42,848 nt of DNA, taken from a virus (Duplodnaviria; Heunggongvirae; Uroviricota; Caudoviricetes). Below the pieces are notes generated by a model. The model saw only the letters and a list, made by a program, of their open reading frames with translations, was not told the origin of the DNA and did not search any database. The stretch spans positions 1-42,848 of IMG/VR virus record IMGVR_UViG_2563366985_000002; one strand, given 5' to 3'. Shown in pieces: positions 5,840-17,549 of the stretch. The position numbers and the translations under genes are program-made. Numbering within the stretch: the first letter of the stretch is position 1; every line of letters starts with the position of its first letter.

Positions 5840-6010
5840 TTAAAGTTCATGTGCCATCTGGTCTTTTTCGGCACAAGCTTCACTGCAATATTTTCTCGGT
5901 TCGTCTTTTGATAAAATCCCGTGCATGAAGTGAAGCATTCTTTCAATAGCTTTGCTTTCTTCAACGTCTTTTTTGCAAAGGTGGTAAGCACATTTTATTT
6001 TCTTAGTCAT
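5840..6010 (-). CDS. ydaE: Small zinc-ribbon-like protein YdaE
   Basis: Hand-translated 56-aa [59 protein letters not shown] (absent from the ORF track because under 60 aa); its ATG overlaps the kilR stop (ATGA). Confidence 0.6.
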   Translation of the reverse strand: MTKKIKCAYHLCKKDVEESKAIERMLHFMHGILSKDEPRKYCSEACAEKDQMAHEL

Positions 6011-6231
6011 CACCATGACTCCGCCTTTACAGGTAAACCATCACGACCGAGGAAGACTTTAATCATGCGGTCAGTAATGAATGTTTTTGTGGTCAGGTTA
6101 CGAATATATAGTTTTCGCTTTTTAATATTGTTTGCCGAGGCAATATATGTCCGGCCTTCATGAAGAACATAATCGCCAGGAGTCACACACTGACGTGGTA
6201 TTTCATCAGTTCCGAAGTGATGTGCAATCAT
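6010..6231 (-). CDS. kilR: KilR, FtsZ-targeting cell-division inhibitor
   Basis: 73-aa product [40 protein letters not shown]... recognised as Rac KilR; start trimmed from the 77-aa ORF. Confidence 0.75.
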
Positions 6232-6672
6232 AATTATCTCCATTTTTACAAATGAACTTTGTTGATGCGGTGTCTGGTGCCTCCAGGTGACTGCAACCAG
6301 TTAACAATTACAGTCGGCTTTCCCACCCAAACCAATAAGGACTAACATGACTTTTAACTGTGCCACGTGCGCTTAGCCGCATTCACCGCATCACAAAATT
6401 TACTTTAAAAAGGGCGGACATCAGCCGAACTTCAAGAAAAAAACTGATGCCGCCAGGACTACACACAGCAATGTCGTTATTTACAACCGGAGGCGCACTC
6501 CCACCATTTAAATTTAACAGACAAGACCGACTCTTTATGGATATCGGAAATGCGCCTTCGTGTTGTGCCCGGTTTTATTTCACCACCTCCGGGCTTCGGT
6601 GGTCTCGGCTATACCCCTACAGCGAGAGCTTGTGTTAACATTTCAATACCCTTACAGTTGAGAGTTATTGAT

Positions 6673-12198: not shown

Positions 12199-13881
12199 AT
12201 GGCCAAACAGTTTATGTTAATGGAACCAAAAAATGAGAACTTCAATGAATTAATTGGAGGGTCAAATAAGTACATTGTTCCTAGATTCCAGCGAGACTAT
12301 GCTTGGGATGTAGAACAATGGGAGGACCTTTGGAGTGATGTTACAGCACTTGATGATGAAGGTTTTCATTATATGGGATATATAGTTCTTCAACAAAAAG
12401 AACAGTATCAACATGAGGTCATTGACGGTCAACAACGATTAGTAACCTTGTCGATTATAGTTCTAGCAGCCATGAAAGCCATTAAAAACTTGATAGATAA
12501 AGGAGAGGAGGTTGAACAAAACACAGAGCGACTTGATGCAATAACAAAGACATTTGTGGGTAACAAAAACTTCGTTTCATTAAAGGTGGTTAGCAAGCTA
12601 GATTTAAATAGAAATAATAAAAGATATTTTCAAAGCATCTGTTCAAACTTAGAAGCTCCTAATACTCGTGGAACTACATCTACAAATAAGCTACTCAAGA
12701 AATGCTTTGATTTTTTCCAAAAGAAGGAGTTCGGTAATACCGGCGCTGAGATCGCACAGTTTATTGCCGATTTTTCTTCGAGTATGGTTTTTACAAAAAT
12801 AGTTGTTCAAGATGATTTAAATGCATACAAAGTATTTGAAACTTTAAATGCGAGAGGAGTCCAGTTATCCACGCCAGATCTCTTAAAAAACTATTTGTTT
12901 TCGATAGTAACTAAGGATGAGAAAATCGGAGATGAGGAATTAGATGAGTTAGATGAGCAATGGTCGGAGATTATCGATCAGTTGGGAGAAAGCAATGTTT
13001 CTGATTACATTAGGTATCATCATAATTCTCATAGAAAAATGGTCACAAAAAATAATTTATACACTTCAATGAGAAAAGTAATTACAACCCCTAAAGAAGC
13101 ATACGATTATTTAAGATCACTGATAAATTCCGCACCTATTTATGCATCATTGATTAACCCGAATGATTCATGGTGGGCAGAGCAAGATACTAAATACAAG
13201 AAGGCCATTCATTATCTGAACGGCATTAGACTCTTTAATATTAGACAGCCATTAACAGTATTGCTATCAGCTTTTAATCAATTCAATCCAGATGAGTTCG
13301 TCAGCCTGACTCGTTATTTATATATTTTATCAATTAGATACAATGTTATTTGTCATTTATCACCAAGTGAACAAGAAAGCATGTATAATCAAATTGCGAT
13401 TAAGATCTCCAATAAGGAATACAAGAGAGCTAGCAATGTGAAAAATGGGGAGGAGTTTAAGAGGTTATATCCTGATGATAACGTGTTCTTTAATGCTTTT
13501 GAATTTCATCGAATGCCAAGTAGACAAACAGCCAAAAAAATTAGATTTCTCTTGGCTGAAATTGAACAATATCTTGGTAATAATTGCGATCATGAAAAAG
13601 TTACACTCGAACATATTTGTCCATTTAACCCAGAGAAGGGGTGGTGCAATTCGTTTGGGGAGGGGGTTAATGACGTAAAGGATAGGTTAGGAAATATGGT
13701 TTTGATGGATAAAGATAATCTAAAAAGAGCTTCATTTGAAGTGAAGAAAAATGAATATGGAAAATCAAAGTATAAATTAGCGGCTAAGATTACACAGTAT
13801 CCTGAATGGAATTTAGAGGCTGTCAATGATTTTCAAAAATGGATGTCGGAACAAGCAGTAAATGTATGGAAAGTTGGTTAA
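12199..13881 (+). CDS. DUF262/DUF1524 two-domain nuclease, GmrSD-family-like (putative type IV restriction / anti-phage defence)
   Basis: 560 aa; N-terminal DUF262 signature (FQRDYAW ... VIDGQQRLVT); C-terminal His-Me finger-like DUF1524 region (EKVTLEHICPF...N); gene markedly AT-rich relative to flanking prophage DNA. Confidence 0.75.
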   Translation: MAKQFMLMEPKNENFNELIGGSNKYIVPRFQRDYAWDVEQWEDLWSDVTALDDEGFHYMGYIVLQQKEQYQHEVIDGQQRLVTLSIIVLAAMKAIKNLIDKGEEVEQNTERLDAITKTFVGNKNFVSLKVVSKLDLNRNNKRYFQSICSNLEAPNTRGTTSTNKLLKKCFDFFQKKEFGNTGAEIAQFIADFSSSMVFTKIVVQDDLNAYKVFETLNARGVQLSTPDLLKNYLFSIVTKDEKIGDEELDELDEQWSEIIDQLGESNVSDYIRYHHNSHRKMVTKNNLYTSMRKVITTPKEAYDYLRSLINSAPIYASLINPNDSWWAEQDTKYKKAIHYLNGIRLFNIRQPLTVLLSAFNQFNPDEFVSLTRYLYILSIRYNVICHLSPSEQESMYNQIAIKISNKEYKRASNVKNGEEFKRLYPDDNVFFNAFEFHRMPSRQTAKKIRFLLAEIEQYLGNNCDHEKVTLEHICPFNPEKGWCNSFGEGVNDVKDRLGNMVLMDKDNLKRASFEVKKNEYGKSKYKLAAKITQYPEWNLEAVNDFQKWMSEQAVNVWKVG

Positions 13882-14003: not shown

Positions 14004-14029
14004 AAGTCCGCTCCTCGCTCAAAGCGGAC
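14004..14029 (+). repeat. 26-bp repeat copy 1 (AAGTCCGCTCCTCGCTCAAAGCGGAC), contains GTCCGC/GCGGAC hairpin
   Basis: Matches 15529-15554 at 22 of 26 positions; lies 3' of the DUF262/DUF1524 gene. Confidence 0.6.
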
Positions 14030-14408
14030 CTTTCTTTTGCATCTACCTTTTACTTTTCCCCTTTCTTCCGTATCTACTTTTCCCATGTATACGATTAATC
14101 CACCCAGATACGACTTTAGCATTTTTCAGCTCTGCCGAGAAGAAAAAGGCGTGATTGTCAAAATTTAACGAAAACAAGCAGATTGTTGCGGATGGCGATT
14201 TTTTGTTTTCTTGGATGAAAAATGTGCATATTTTTGCTAAAAGTGGTTAAATATGTCTAACGGCGAATTAGCGACGAAGCGATACTCAGATTTTCAACCA
14301 GAACGTTCGTCTGGCCTTAGATAGAATGGACATTTTTGGATCCACTTTGTCCACGGAGGGCCATATAAGTGCCAACGTTTTAAAAAAGCTACTCAGGAGT
14401 ATTTATAA

Positions 14409-15458
14409 ATGGGATTTATTTCACAACTATTCAATTTGCTTACCTCCAGGATAACTTCTGCAAAAACAATGACGCCTTCAAGTTTGCATGAGTTAACAGC
14501 TAACATAACTCCTAAACTCAAGAAACAAAACGGAAATATATCAATCGAAAACGATTGGCTTACTATTGATTCTCCTTATTTTTTTGGACAAGCGTATCTG
14601 TCTGCAAACAAACATTGGGTTGTAGGCTGTAGTGACTTTGATGGCAATGGAAGGGGAGGGCACCGGGAAAGTGGATTTGGAACAGTTGTTTTAGTTAATA
14701 AACCAACTTTTCGTATCCTTCATAAGCTCAGAACTATTGCCCGACCATTTAATGCTGCTGTCGCTGACACAGGTGATTATATTGTTCATGACGCTGGATT
14801 TGGTTCTGCGCTGCAAGCTGATTTGATTGCTATTGATGTTGAAGGAAATGAAAAGTTTAGACGTCATTATGAAGCAAATATCTATAATATCGGAATTTCT
14901 CATTGTGGTAAATACGCATCGGTTCAGACAGCCGCAGCGCCCGGTAAAGATGGAAATATCCTTGAGGTAATAAATCTGTGGTCAAAAACAACAATATTTT
15001 CCATTAAACCTGAGTATGGATGGGCTGATAGTTATTTCTTCGATCTCGATGAAAATGGGGGGCTAAGATCGCTGAAAGTGAAATGCAAAAATATTGGATA
15101 CTTCAGATACACTGCCATCGGTATTCCCATTGACGTGGAAGCGTATAAAGATGCTTGTCTATATAAAGGAAATTTCAACCTTAAAGTAGAGGCCGCGAGA
15201 GCGCTTTTAAGAGAACATCCCAGTGAGAAGAATGCTCAAAAAGCATTGAAAGCAATTGAAATGGCTCTTAATGAAGGAGCGAAAGACCGAACTGACTGGG
15301 CTGCAGCCGCATTTCGCATCAAAGGTGAAGCAAATGATTTACTTGGTAACTTTAGTGATGCTCTTGATGCCTATGAAAAAGCTTTGAGCTTTAATCCAAA
15401 AATAGGGGTTCAGAGACGAGTTAATGCTCTGCGTAAAAAATTACAGAGATTAAAATAA
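14409..15458 (+). CDS. Hypothetical protein, beta-rich N-domain with C-terminal TPR-like repeat
   Basis: 349-aa ORF with AGGAG Shine-Dalgarno; C-terminus AAAAFRIKGEANDLLGNFSDALDAYEKALSFNPK fits a TPR repeat; no catalytic motif recognised. Confidence 0.6.
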   Translation: MGFISQLFNLLTSRITSAKTMTPSSLHELTANITPKLKKQNGNISIENDWLTIDSPYFFGQAYLSANKHWVVGCSDFDGNGRGGHRESGFGTVVLVNKPTFRILHKLRTIARPFNAAVADTGDYIVHDAGFGSALQADLIAIDVEGNEKFRRHYEANIYNIGISHCGKYASVQTAAAPGKDGNILEVINLWSKTTIFSIKPEYGWADSYFFDLDENGGLRSLKVKCKNIGYFRYTAIGIPIDVEAYKDACLYKGNFNLKVEAARALLREHPSEKNAQKALKAIEMALNEGAKDRTDWAAAAFRIKGEANDLLGNFSDALDAYEKALSFNPKIGVQRRVNALRKKLQRLK

Positions 15459-15528
15459 AACCAGCAAGTATCACGATAGAGAAATTTTTTCGGAACTACC
15501 TGTAGTGATTATGTTTCTATATACACCA

Positions 15529-15554
15529 AAGTTAGCTCCTCGTTCAAAGCAGAC
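15529..15554 (+). repeat. 26-bp repeat copy 2 (AAGTTAGCTCCTCGTTCAAAGCAGAC)
   Basis: Matches 14004-14029 at 22 of 26 positions; lies 3' of the 349-aa gene. Confidence 0.6.
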
Positions 15555-16032
15555 TAGATGTTGGCTTCCGTCGGACTTGGCGTATTTAAAGAAGTGCTGG
15601 TAGTGACTGGTTGTTGTATTCCATTTCTACAGAACAAAATCACAGAAACTATACCCAATAGTTGTATTGAATCACTGACGAGACAGCCTCATATTTATCA
15701 GGGCAGGTGCACGTCCAATACAGGAGGTTGTCGTGCTGGTTCTCAAGTGTGCGTTGGCTATTGCGGCTGTGGTGGCAATTTATTGTCTTGCTATTGTTCT
15801 TATGGATCGCCTTTCTGATTGATTTCATATTGGCGAAGTAAAGGGGGTTAAATAGTATGGCTGCGGGGGCTTGAGGCTATCTGCCTTGGGCATGAAAACC
15901 AAAGGCAGATAGAAAAAGTCCCAGTTGATATTACGCATCCGGCAAGAGGCTTAACATTAATCTGGGGCCCAATCTATGCCTTACAAACGTAGGTTAGTCT
16001 CTTACGTGCTGAAAGGCAAGAAGAAGCGGGCT

Positions 16033-16188
16033 ATGAAGCAGCAAAAGGCGATGTTAATCACCCTGATCGTCATCTGTTTAACCGTTATAGTGACGGTACT
16101 GGTAACGAGGAAAGACCTCTGCGAGGTACGAATCCGAACCGACCAGACGGAGGTCGCTGTCTTCACAGCTTACGAACTTGGGGAGTAA
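16033..16188 (+). CDS. hok: Hok/Gef-family type I toxin (membrane peptide)
   Basis: 51-aa product MKQQKAMLITLIVICLTVIVTVLVTRKDLCEVRIRTDQTEVAVFTAYELGE, closely resembling HokD/RelF; the six-frame ORF carries a 19-codon in-frame upstream extension. Confidence 0.8.
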   Translation: MKQQKAMLITLIVICLTVIVTVLVTRKDLCEVRIRTDQTEVAVFTAYELGE

Positions 16189-16210: not shown

Positions 16211-17549
16211 CATAAGCGCTAACTTAAGGGTTGAACCATCTGAAGAATGCGACGCCTCGGTGCCTCGTTAAGACGATGCCTCGCGTTCTTCAATTGCGTT
16301 TTGTAGGCTGTCAGGGATACTGTCCCACGAATGGCCACCTGTAAGCTCCAGATGACCATTTTTGTTATTCTCCACAACGAGTTAGTTCTTCTTTTCGGAT
16401 CCGGCACTTCTGGGGGGGAAATCCAGCGATGGCTGGATTATGTCGTCAATTAAAAATGCGGCGAGTAGATTAGCAAATATCCACGCTTTCGCGAGTTCAG
16501 GTTCCTTTGCACGCAAAGCATCCAGGTGCAGCAAACTTTTGAGCCGCTTAAAAGCCAGTTCAATTTGCCATCGCAGACGGTAACAATCAGCCACTTGCTC
16601 TGCTGAATATTCATCTTCCGGTAATGATGTTAGCAATAGCACATGGCCCGCTGCTTCCAGCGTTTCCGCCTGAACTACTCGTCCTTTTCGACGATTCTCG
16701 CTGAGCAGTCGGGTTTTACTGATTAATGCTTTTTCGGGAGGAAGTGATACGGCAATGAGACGTGCCGGAAAGGGAGCTCCGGCTTTTTTATTACCTGAAT
16801 TGCCTATCATTACAGTGGTTTCACCGTTCTTACCGCAATCCAGCCCGCGCAGAAAACCCATCATGTCAAAGCGCATTCCTTCTGCAGTTAACCAGCGCAA
16901 TCCTCGCCAGTGAACCCGGACGATATAATCAGCTTCTCCAAAAGCAAGTGAGCGGATACATTCGGGACGCGAACCGAATCCCCGGTCAGCAATGCGTATC
17001 TCGTCTGCCGTTTGCGCAAATCGGTCCAGCCGTTCAGCGTCTCTGCTGTCGGTTAGCTCAAAATCAGTGAACTGACAGGTATGAGGATCATATCCCATAT
17101 GTAGTCGCCATTCAGCGCTGCCGCCCCCGGGCGCACTGATTGCTGTTCCATCGACAAGACGCAATCTCTTTCCGCTTGTACAACCCGTAACTGCGGCGCG
17201 TACAGCAAGTGTTTGTGCGGCAAGTATGCCAAACCAGTCGGCGGCATTCCGCAGCCGCTTCAGGAGAGCCACGTCAGATAATGTTGCAACGTCATGGAGC
17301 TGAGCCCATGCAGTGACTTCACGTAATGACATCCCCCCGGGGCCGTAAGCCAGCCCCAGACGTAGCAGAGTTGCAGCATCACGAATTTCGCGGCGGCGGG
17401 TTAGAGCCCCGGCATTACGTGCCGAAGTATCCAGTTCTTCGGGCTTACCAATATGGGCCAGAATTGCTGACCAGTTATCGTGAGAGTAATTCATCGGCAC
17501 GTTAAATCATATCAGGCGTAATACCACAACCCTTAAGTTAGCGCTTATG
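16211..17549 (-). mobile_element. IS186 (IS4 family), complete copy
   Basis: 23-bp perfect terminal inverted repeats CATAAGCGCTAACTTAAGGGTTG at 16211-16233 and reverse-complemented at 17527-17549; encloses the transposase ORF; flanked by a 10-bp direct repeat. Confidence 0.85.
16382..17500 (-). CDS. insL: IS186 transposase
   Basis: 372-aa ORF (start possibly 2 codons in, at MNYSHDNW) recognised as IS186 InsL transposase. Confidence 0.9.
   Translation of the reverse strand: MPMNYSHDNWSAILAHIGKPEELDTSARNAGALTRRREIRDAATLLRLGLAYGPGGMSLREVTAWAQLHDVATLSDVALLKRLRNAADWFGILAAQTLAVRAAVTGCTSGKRLRLVDGTAISAPGGGSAEWRLHMGYDPHTCQFTDFELTDSRDAERLDRFAQTADEIRIADRGFGSRPECIRSLAFGEADYIVRVHWRGLRWLTAEGMRFDMMGFLRGLDCGKNGETTVMIGNSGNKKAGAPFPARLIAVSLPPEKALISKTRLLSENRRKGRVVQAETLEAAGHVLLLTSLPEDEYSAEQVADCYRLRWQIELAFKRLKSLLHLDALRAKEPELAKAWIFANLLAAFLIDDIIQPSLDFPPRSAGSEKKN

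What the first reader, a model, noticed from the sequence alone, without database searches (positions are those of the whole stretch)
14409..15458. 349-aa protein of unknown function with a C-terminal TPR-like repeat
The N-terminal 250 residues are Gly/aromatic-rich with no motif I can assign; the C-terminus (AAAAFRIKGEANDLLGNFSDALDAYEKALSFNPK) fits the TPR pattern. It has its own AGGAG Shine-Dalgarno and sits 527 bp after the nuclease gene, so it may be independently transcribed. It could be a partner of the nuclease or a separate moron.
Basis: inference. Interest (0 to 1): 0.65.

Follow-up and report, generated by a model that had tools for sequence, protein, structure and literature searches.

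The report
Membrane-tethered propeller–TPR prophage cargo protein
The 349-aa gene is real and belongs to a widespread but uncharacterised family of probably membrane-tethered protein-binding scaffolds; it is carried as a self-contained cassette in a prophage site that otherwise holds proven anti-phage genes, so it is a good candidate for a new single-gene phage defence and not a partner of the neighbouring nuclease.

Summary
The ORF (14409-15458, +) is confirmed, including its start, its Shine-Dalgarno site and the 527-bp gap. It is under purifying selection.

The "unassignable" N-terminal part is a conserved short hydrophobic/basic N-terminal motif, a disordered linker and a WD40-like beta-propeller of about four blades. 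The C-terminus is a three-hairpin TPR domain with one canonical TPR.

About 286 sequence clusters (50% identity) share the full-length architecture. None matches PADLOC, PHROGs or NCBIfam, and Pfam gives only sub-threshold TPR hits. Some relatives have true transmembrane helices in place of the N-terminal motif. A few carry C-terminal VRR-NUC or DEDD-exonuclease/BRCT domains.

The window is an E. coli Rac-like prophage. The upstream nuclease is HEC-06, a GmrSD-like enzyme published as defending on its own. Homologues at 88%, 81% and 46% identity lie in other elements where no GmrSD gene was seen. The transferable unit is only 14353-15554.

It ends at a 24-nt hairpin-like motif that also follows the GmrSD gene. 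The same motif marks the cargo edge of hotspots in more than 100 prophage stretches, P2-like ones included. Cargo there includes PD-T7-1/3/5, PD-T4-6, PD-Lambda-1, PifA and Shedu.

Best reading: an independent, membrane-anchored, enzyme-free anti-phage or exclusion protein. The function is inferred, not shown.

The parts
14409..15458 (+). CDS of the 349-aa propeller-TPR protein (stop codon included)
   Evidence: Homologues. dN/dS 0.24. Structure model with mean pLDDT 87.8.
14395..14399 (+). Shine-Dalgarno AGGAG, 9 nt before the ATG
   Evidence: It is conserved in the Pectobacterium copy.
14409..14450 (+). N-terminal motif MGFISQLFNLLTSR (family consensus M-G-[LF]-[LIF]-[SD]-[KR]-L-[FL]-G); inferred membrane anchor
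   Evidence: The motif is present in 105/178 family members and in 2/328 control proteins. A further 15 members have a hydrophobic TM-like segment in the first 90 residues without the motif. Basic residues after the TM helix in P0148 and P0175 suggest a cytoplasmic body (positive-inside rule, inference).
14451..14537 (+). Low-confidence linker, probably disordered (aa 15-43)
   Evidence: pLDDT below 50 over aa 1-38. Length and sequence vary in the alignment.
14538..15128 (+). WD40-like beta-propeller domain of about four blades (aa 44-240)
15135..15455 (+). C-terminal helical TPR-like domain (aa 243-349): three hairpins plus a basic capping helix
15300..15401 (+). The one canonical TPR repeat (aa 298-331)
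   Evidence: Pfam TPR_1 9e-6, below the gathering score. PDB phmmer hit to CTPR at 2.9e-8. Family-profile hits to consensus TPR proteins.
14353..15554 (+). The horizontally shared module: the extent of nucleotide homology to copies in other elements
   Evidence: 89% identity to the P22-like prophage contig L061 over 14353-15554. 85% identity to the Pectobacterium island L051 over 14378-15555.
15531..15554 (+). Degenerate copy of the 24-nt hotspot-boundary motif (GTTAGCTCCTCGTTCAAAGCAGAC), right end of the module
   Evidence: Homology to the common E. coli prophage backbone starts at 15535.
14006..14029 (+). Perfect copy of the boundary motif (GTCCGCTCCTCGCTCAAAGCGGAC) ending the upstream GmrSD cassette
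   Evidence: None of 100 shuffles of the window gave a match.
12199..13881 (+). Neighbour, not part of the unit: the HEC-06-type GmrSD restriction enzyme
   Evidence: Pfam GmrSD_N and GmrSD_C. PADLOC HEC-06 at 4.3e-221. Catalytic residues as in the published protein.

Best explanation
The gene is a self-contained, horizontally mobile cargo cassette. It sits in a defence hotspot of a Rac-like lambdoid prophage, between the replication module and hok/sok plus the DUF1367-Q genes.

Its product has no recognisable enzymatic domain. It consists of a short conserved hydrophobic/basic N-terminal segment, a flexible linker, a WD40-like beta-propeller of about four blades, and a three-hairpin TPR domain with a very basic last helix. 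The N-terminal segment most likely tethers the protein to the cytoplasmic face of the inner membrane.

I propose that it acts on its own as an anti-phage protein of the superinfection-exclusion or abortive-infection type. In this model the two repeat scaffolds bind a phage protein, or a host protein that phages need, at the membrane. Binding would block or trap an early step such as genome entry or assembly of a replication or injection complex. In a minority of relatives the same module is fused to a nuclease, so the module would there serve as the targeting or sensing part.

Shown: the gene is real and under selection; the fold; the N-terminal motif and its replacement by TM helices in relatives; the module boundaries; the variable neighbours; the hotspot cargo.

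Inferred: membrane association, the defence function and the mechanism.
For: (1) Real, constrained gene. There are 286 representatives at E<=1e-30, nearly all 300-350 aa and matched over nearly their whole length. dN/dS is 0.24.

(2) Fold. Mean pLDDT is 87.8, with a propeller plus TPR. No catalytic family matches in Pfam, NCBIfam, PHROGs or PADLOC. The conserved residues are mainly blade-type structural positions.

(3) Membrane tether. The N-terminal motif is in 105/178 members against 2/328 controls. A further 15 members have a hydrophobic TM-like segment instead, and in P0148 and P0175 it is followed by basic residues.

(4) Independence from the nuclease. The shared module is only 14353-15554. 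The Morganella homologue occupies the same slot, directly before DUF1367, with no GmrSD gene. No neighbour is conserved across 41 loci. HEC-06 defends alone.

(5) Defence location. The same slot in another E. coli prophage holds an anti-phage dCTP deaminase. The boundary motif that ends the cassette marks cargo sites in at least 119 IMG/VR stretches. Cargo there includes PD-T7-1, PD-T7-3, PD-T7-5, PD-T4-6, PD-Lambda-1, PifA, HEC-06, an RT, SduA, HEPN, AIPR and Schlafen proteins.

(6) Neighbours of homologues elsewhere are often defence or toxin-antitoxin genes: MkoC (4 loci), CBASS (5 loci), AbiE, PD-T4-5, a NACHT protein plus Mrr/OLD, HipA, Panacea, and ResIII and SNF2 helicases.

(7) Fusions to VRR-NUC, with the PD...ExK motif visibly intact, and to RNase_T plus BRCT.

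(8) The gene is rare (31/5426 E. coli genomes), has low GC (0.39 against 0.46 for the window) and is sometimes interrupted by IS elements. This is the behaviour of an accessory gene.
Against: There is no experimental or homology-based link to any known defence protein, and PADLOC gives no hit.

Several homologues sit in contexts with no obvious defence gene: Aeromonas between housekeeping genes, a contig beside metabolic genes, and a contig beside ankyrin-repeat and hypothetical genes.

An enzyme-free scaffold gives no obvious killing or blocking activity.

Membrane association rests on sequence pattern only. By a hydrophobic-moment criterion only 33 of 153 scorable N-termini counted as clearly amphipathic.

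Genes at this position in a lambdoid phage are also transcribed early in lytic growth (established knowledge of lambdoid phages). That would fit a counter-defence or host-takeover role equally well.

No family member was found in 50,697 deposited phage genomes.

Guilt by location is weak evidence for any single gene.
Confidence: 0.45

Rival explanations
1. Accessory subunit of nucleic-acid enzymes. In this reading the propeller-TPR protein is an adaptor, sensor or regulator that works with an adjacent nuclease or helicase. Here that would be the HEC-06 GmrSD. It could localise the enzyme to the membrane, gate it, or widen its target range.
For: In E. coli the two genes are always together: 30 of the 31 carriers hold at least 80% of the 4.1-kb block at 99% identity or more, and in the other (PSJ-16) the target gene is split by IS1. 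No separate copy of the GmrSD gene is seen at this sensitivity. Both genes have low GC.

Relatives are fused to VRR-NUC or to a DEDD exonuclease with BRCT.

In about a third of loci the gene follows a co-directional gene with a gap of 30 nt or less, or an overlap. These include MkoC, a ResIII helicase, AbiEii, PD-T4-5 and a 1248-aa protein.
Against: HEC-06 was cloned alone and protects. MkoC and PD-T4-5 are listed as single-gene systems (the PADLOC model names are; their single-gene status is my own knowledge).

The upstream partner differs in nearly every lineage, and no neighbour cluster spans more than 5 loci.

Close homologues at 81% and 46% identity have no GmrSD gene nearby. The contig of the 88% homologue is cut 161 nt upstream, so it is uninformative on that side.

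The module boundaries exclude the nuclease, and a boundary motif separates the two genes.

Nucleases and helicases are the commonest content of defence islands (my own knowledge), so adjacency to them is expected by chance.
Confidence: 0.2
2. A moron that benefits the phage but is not a defence. It could be a counter-defence or host-modulating protein expressed early in lytic growth or in the lysogen, for example by sequestering a host immune sensor or altering envelope physiology.
For: The position between the replication and Q modules is transcribed early in lambdoid phages (established knowledge). The architecture is purely protein-binding. Family members occur on plasmids, on elements with conjugation genes and in prophages, where anti-defence genes also accumulate.
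Against: Many copies lie in chromosomal defence islands directly after defence genes. Cargo at the motif-marked hotspots that can be identified is overwhelmingly defensive. No copy was found in deposited phage genomes. Nuclease fusions fit an effector-bearing immune protein better than an inhibitor.
Confidence: 0.2
3. A housekeeping or envelope-biogenesis TPR protein, as suggested by the 'YfgM family protein' label in some RefSeq records, or a non-functional ORF.
For: PGAP names it 'YfgM family protein' in 6 of the 30 listed E. coli records. TPR proteins are common in envelope assembly (my own knowledge).
Against: NCBIfam returns no YfgM or other family above noise; the best hit is MamA at E 0.064. 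The gene is in 0.6% of E. coli genomes, and the inspected copies lie in prophage. It is foreign in GC and under purifying selection.
Confidence: 0.03

Closest known systems
TPR and WD40 sensor arms of bacterial STAND/Avs-type immune receptors
   Same: Repeat scaffolds (TPR, beta-propeller) encoded in defence islands. In those systems they bind phage proteins (my own knowledge). The fold-level resemblance is shown.
   Different: There is no NTPase domain and no effector domain. The protein is about 350 aa instead of more than 1000. It has an N-terminal membrane-anchor motif. No sequence homology to PADLOC Avs or NLR models was detected.
Prophage superinfection-exclusion proteins (lambda/P22 SieB, HK97 gp15, T4 Imm)
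   Same: Single prophage-borne genes, membrane-associated, no enzymatic domain, acting early in infection (my own knowledge). The related SE11 prophage carries an annotated sieB elsewhere.
   Different: No sequence or fold relationship was tested or expected. Those are small integral membrane proteins. This one is a 349-aa peripheral, two-domain cytoplasmic scaffold.
HEC-06 / GmrSD type IV restriction enzyme (the neighbouring gene)
   Same: Same cargo region, same low GC, and co-inherited in E. coli.
   Different: Unrelated protein. HEC-06 is a DUF262/DUF1524 nuclease that works alone. The target is separable from it in other taxa.
Cargo of the P2-like Z/fun and other prophage defence hotspots (PD-T7-1/3/5, PD-T4-6, PD-Lambda-1, PifA)
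   Same: AT-rich single- or few-gene cassettes lying immediately next to the same 24-nt boundary motif.
   Different: No homology to any of them. The function of this cassette has not been tested.
Eukaryotic beta-propeller plus alpha-solenoid proteins (IFT-A subunits, COPI alpha/beta')
   Different: TM-scores are low (0.25-0.31), there are about 4 blades and 3 hairpins only, and sequence identity is 7-13%. This is a resemblance of architecture, not evidence of common descent or function.

Membership tests
TPR repeat proteins (Pfam TPR_1/TPR_2) | A 34-residue helix-turn-helix repeat that matches the TPR profile above the curated cut-off | tested here: inconclusive
   The single sequence scores 25.7 bits against the cut-off of 27.8. 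Several homologues pass, for example P0148 at 34.4 bits. The family profile hits consensus TPR proteins strongly.
TPR repeat proteins (Pfam TPR_1/TPR_2) | Tandem antiparallel helical hairpins forming a right-handed superhelix | tested here: met
WD40 / beta-propeller proteins | Four-stranded antiparallel blades arranged as a propeller | tested here: met
WD40 / beta-propeller proteins | A closed ring of 6-8 blades and a match to the WD40 sequence profile | tested here: not met
   Only about 4 blades (aa 44-235) fit. Matches align 180-200 residues of targets that are 300 residues or longer. There is no Pfam WD40, PD40 or other propeller hit.
HEC-06 / GmrSD defence system | A single DUF262-DUF1524 protein; a partner would have to co-occur with it | tested here: not met
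   HEC-06 is defined and validated as one gene. Homologues of the target in 41 loci share no GmrSD neighbour outside the E. coli clone.
Any known or candidate defence system in PADLOC-DB v2.0.0 | A match to a system protein model | tested here: not met
   0 families at E<=1. The database dates from 2023, so later systems were not covered.
YfgM family (the RefSeq label in some genomes) | A match to the NCBIfam/Pfam YfgM model; an N-terminal TM helix plus a periplasmic TPR-like domain | tested here: not met
   No YfgM hit in NCBIfam or Pfam at E<=1. The architecture differs: it has a propeller and no TM helix in this member.
Superinfection-exclusion / abortive-infection proteins (a functional class) | Reduces infection by heterologous phages when expressed alone | not testable with these tools
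   This needs plaque and lysogenisation assays.
Peripheral membrane proteins with an N-terminal amphipathic anchor | An N-terminal segment necessary and sufficient for membrane binding | tested here: inconclusive
   The motif is enriched 105/178 against 2/328, and a further 15 relatives have a hydrophobic TM-like segment instead. The hydrophobic moment is above the threshold in only 33 of 153 scorable members. No localisation data exist.

The most novel reading that the evidence does not exclude
The family would be a new class of single-gene immunity: an enzyme-free receptor, tethered to the inner membrane, whose propeller-TPR surface recognises a phage component at the site of genome entry. 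The same sensor would be wired in cis to VRR-NUC or DEDD nucleases in some lineages. Its cassette, like many validated defence genes, would move between unrelated prophage families (lambdoid, P2-like, P22-like) and genomic islands by recombination at a shared 24-nt hairpin 'address' motif. That would be a concrete mechanism for the defence-cassette shuttling that a 2026 study of P2 and P4 hotspots left unexplained (PMC13586616).
Probability: 0.2. Interest if true: 0.85.

Novelty: new variant of a known kind. Interest (0 to 1): 0.62.

Why it matters
If the protein restricts phages, it adds a defence family with no enzymatic domain and a likely membrane location. The family is widespread: 286 clusters across Proteobacteria and beyond. 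That would point to a mechanism different from the nuclease, NADase or nucleotide-depletion systems that dominate current catalogues. The rare nuclease fusions would identify the propeller-TPR unit as a reusable sensor.

The result also corrects the annotation ('tetratricopeptide repeat protein' or 'YfgM family protein') and separates the gene from HEC-06.

The boundary motif found on the way may be more important than the gene. It gives a sequence handle for finding defence cargo in prophages of different families. It may also explain how cassettes are exchanged.

Tried and rejected
- **Sequence family searches.** Pfam, NCBIfam, PHROGs and PADLOC gave nothing beyond sub-threshold TPR hits.
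- **PDB sequence search.** Only designed TPR proteins and one weak eIF2A propeller hit at E 0.059.
- **Conserved partner gene.** All-against-all clustering of ORFs from 41 loci found no neighbour shared by more than 5 loci.
- **Catalytic residues.** A 163-sequence alignment shows mostly glycines, blade serines and structural aromatics. R112-P113, D128, N157, Q173-T174 and D181 are conserved, but no known motif is present.
- **Promoter and terminator scans.** No clear promoter lies upstream of the gene. Terminator-like hits number 8 against 2.8 expected, but none lies directly after the gene.
- **Rfam.** Only sok was found.
- **Literature.** No paper mentions WP_000505828. Searches combining propeller, TPR and anti-phage terms gave nothing specific.
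- **Deposited phage genomes.** No homologue in 50,697 records.
- **Second word-indexed protein search.** The run with a 139-sequence profile was limited by its candidate cap and added little beyond one more VRR-NUC fusion.
- **Hairpin structure of the motif.** I considered that it is a conserved RNA or DNA structure. The variants break stem pairs without compensation, so conservation looks sequence-based (by inspection).

Full report
**Observation**

The ORF is exactly as described. It runs from 14409 to 15458 on the + strand and encodes 349 aa. The ATG is the first possible start, because a TAA lies in frame at 14406. AGGAG lies 9 nt upstream. The stop of the preceding gene is 527 bp away. 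The quoted TPR string is aa 298-331.

It is a real gene. A first search found 44 homologue clusters. An exhaustive profile search found 286 representatives (50%-identity clusters) at E<=1e-30, almost all 300-350 aa and matched over nearly their whole length. Against an 81%-identical Pectobacterium copy, dN/dS is 0.24.

**Setting**

The window is an E. coli Rac-like lambdoid prophage. The target gene and its flanks are 100% identical to strain ET358, and the region has the same organisation as in SE11. The gene order is:
- ydaU/ydaV-type replication genes (as annotated in the related SE11 prophage)
- DUF1627
- DUF977
- a GmrSD-type nuclease (12199-13881)
- the target gene
- sok RNA and hok
- an IS element
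- DUF1367, DUF1364 and Q

.

The nuclease matches the PADLOC HEC-06 model at 4e-221. It has S46, Q79/R80 and E471/H472 at the positions mutated in the published HEC-06. That protein was synthesised as a single gene and shown to protect E. coli (bioRxiv 10.1101/2024.01.29.577857).

**What the protein is**

No curated library recognises it beyond a sub-threshold TPR hit. With a 35-sequence alignment, AlphaFold2 gives a confident model (mean pLDDT 87.8, pTM 0.79).
- aa 1-38 are low-confidence apart from a short N-terminal helix.
- aa 44-235 form 17 beta-strands grouped as about four four-stranded blades.
- aa 243-348 form six helices.

**The N-terminus**

The first dozen residues follow a family-wide pattern, M-G-[LF]-[LIF]-[SD]-[KR]-L-[FL]-G, often followed by K or R. 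The pattern is present in 105 of 178 members, against 2 of 328 control proteins taken from the same loci. A variable linker rich in Pro, Ala and Ser follows.

A further fifteen members instead have a hydrophobic TM-like segment in the first 90 residues. In P0148 and P0175 it is followed by basic residues, which suggests that the body of the protein is cytoplasmic. I infer a membrane tether. This is an inference from sequence pattern only. A simple hydrophobic-moment test was positive in only 33 of 153 scorable members.

**Fusions**

A few relatives carry extra C-terminal domains.
- VRR-NUC in at least two divergent lineages. P0122 also has two N-terminal TM helices. P0180 and P0194 are 47% identical to each other. 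The PD...ExK motif is visible in all three.
- RNase_T plus BRCT in P0142.

**Is it a partner of the nuclease?**

In E. coli the two genes occur together as one clonal block. At least 80% of the 4.1-kb block is present in 30 of 5426 complete genomes, and the target gene in 31, all at 99% identity or more.

Outside that clone the linkage disappears.
- Nucleotide homology to an 88%-identical copy in a P22-like prophage covers only window 14353-15554. Homology to the 81% copy in a Pectobacterium AlpA/DUF6387 island covers 14378-15555. Neither locus shows a GmrSD gene, although the P22-like contig ends 161 nt upstream of the gene.
- In Morganella prophages a 46% homologue occupies the equivalent slot, directly before DUF1367 and after Dam and Lar, again without GmrSD.
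- All-against-all clustering of ORFs from 41 loci found no neighbour shared by more than five loci.

The gene is therefore an independent module. The partner hypothesis survives only as a minority view. Its support is the E. coli co-inheritance, the nuclease fusions, and the frequent tight spacing behind large nuclease or helicase genes.

**Why defence is the leading hypothesis**

First, the slot. In another E. coli prophage the interval between DUF977 and hok holds an anti-phage dCTP deaminase.

Second, neighbours elsewhere:
- Mokosh MkoC directly upstream in four loci
- CBASS in five loci
- AbiE
- PD-T4-5
- a 2138-aa NACHT-like protein plus an Mrr/OLD protein
- HipA
- a Panacea antitoxin-domain protein
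- ResIII and SNF2 helicases
- conjugation and integrase genes

Third, the boundary motif described below ties the cassette to a pool of cargo that includes many experimentally validated systems.

Against this, some copies sit among housekeeping or uncharacterised genes. No member is in deposited phage genomes. A scaffold without an enzyme gives no self-evident mechanism.

**The boundary motif (found in passing)**

A 24-nt sequence, GTCCGCTCCTCGCTCAAAGCGGAC, lies 125 nt after the GmrSD stop (14006-14029). A 20/24 copy lies 73 nt after the target's stop (15531-15554). No shuffle of the window produced a match.

Three observations place the second copy at a boundary.
- The module homologies to the other elements end there.
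- Homology to the common prophage backbone, seen in 1,896 E. coli genomes, begins there, at 15535.

With the sequences anchored at the motif, the upstream DNA is unconserved and AT-rich, the motif and 7 nt before it are conserved, and the downstream DNA falls into backbone classes. One class of 25 contexts is P2-like: G, then cargo, then the motif, then the pF region and FI. P2 itself has a degenerate copy upstream of fun(Z). Another class of 23 contexts is the lambdoid hok-proximal backbone of this window. More than 40 other classes are small or singletons.

The ORFs next to the motif are hyper-diverse: 126 clusters among 193 ORFs. They include PD-T7-1, PD-T7-3, PD-T7-5, PD-T4-6, PD-Lambda-1, PifA, HEC-06, a reverse transcriptase, SduA, and HEPN, AIPR, Schlafen, RES and KAP proteins.

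Reverse-oriented copies lie about 180 nt upstream of target homologues in a Pantoea plasmid and in an IMG/VR contig. This is the same arrangement as the degenerate copy upstream of fun(Z) in P2.

A 2026 analysis of P2 and P4 hotspots states that the mechanism of cassette exchange with other elements is unknown, and the words motif, hairpin and stem-loop do not occur in its text (PMC13586616). I did not establish what the motif does. The variants break the stem without compensation, so conservation looks sequence-based.

**Verdict**

The protein founds an uncharacterised, widespread family with a defined architecture: N-terminal anchor motif, linker, short beta-propeller, TPR. It is a credible candidate for a new single-gene, membrane-associated anti-phage function.

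What is inferred is the function and the mechanism. What is shown is the anatomy, the mobility and the location.

Noticed in passing
window 14006-14029 and 15531-15554; also L061 1286-1309 and 2723-2746, L002 7801-7824 (-), L186 5122-5145 and 5801-5824 (-), L195 (phage P2) 2933-2958, and 119 IMG/VR stretches (L063 onward): A 24-nt hairpin-like motif, GTCCGCTCCTCGCTCAAAGCGGAC, marks the edge between hyper-variable AT-rich cargo and conserved backbone in prophages of different families. These include the P2-like G/FI (Z/fun) hotspot, the lambdoid hok-proximal hotspot and many others. Cargo next to it includes many validated defence systems. It may be a recombination or insulator site that lets defence cassettes move between unrelated elements. 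I found no description of it in the hotspot papers I searched.
   Followed up: partly
window 12199-13881 (+): The upstream gene is a HEC-06-type GmrSD type IV restriction enzyme (PADLOC 4e-221). It has the DGQQR motif and the EHICP motif at the same residue numbers as the experimentally tested protein, so it is very likely an active stand-alone defence.
   Followed up: yes
window 15865-16038 (sok RNA, +), 15976-16188 (hok/mok ORF, +), 16382-17500 (-): A hok/sok type I toxin-antitoxin locus follows the cargo (Rfam sok 92 bits; Pfam HOK_GEF). It is separated from the DUF1367-DUF1364-Q genes by a 372-aa transposase ORF. I recognise that ORF from memory as IS186/IS4-like, and I did not test this. 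In SE11 an IS3-family element sits there instead, and the IMG/VR copy L182 has no insertion there.
   Followed up: partly
L055 4301-5938 (E. coli KK19-02 prophage): The equivalent slot between DUF977 and hokD in another lambdoid prophage carries an annotated anti-phage dCTP deaminase. This shows that the site is a swap point for defence cargo.
   Followed up: yes
E. coli PSJ-16 (hit H2) and L187 4365-4742 / 6001-6534: The target gene is interrupted by IS1 in one E. coli genome. Its Morganella homologue is interrupted by an insertion of about 1.26 kb in one prophage. This suggests the gene is dispensable or sometimes costly.
   Followed up: no
L061 1367-2602 (-): In the P22-like prophage contig, a 411-aa protein with no Pfam match lies between two copies of the boundary motif, next to the target homologue. 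It is another uncharacterised cargo cassette worth testing.
   Followed up: no
window 14029-14081: Two 22-nt direct repeats 31 nt apart (CCTTTCTTTTGCATCTACCTTT and CCTTTCTTCCGTATCTACTTTT) lie immediately after the first motif copy, in the 527-bp spacer. The complete spacer is found only in the 31 E. coli genomes that carry this cassette, apart from a partial match of window 14006-14135 in four other records.
   Followed up: partly
L007, L010, L029, L030, L031 (high-GC genomes): In several high-GC hosts the homologue fails a simple third-codon-position GC test that the surrounding genes pass. This is consistent with recent foreign origin there too.
   Followed up: no
L015, L017, L019, L023: In four Betaproteobacteria and Alphaproteobacteria loci the homologue lies 6-25 nt after, or overlaps, a Mokosh type II (MkoC-like) helicase-nuclease gene (best E-value 2e-265). 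This is a recurrent pairing that might be functional.
   Followed up: partly
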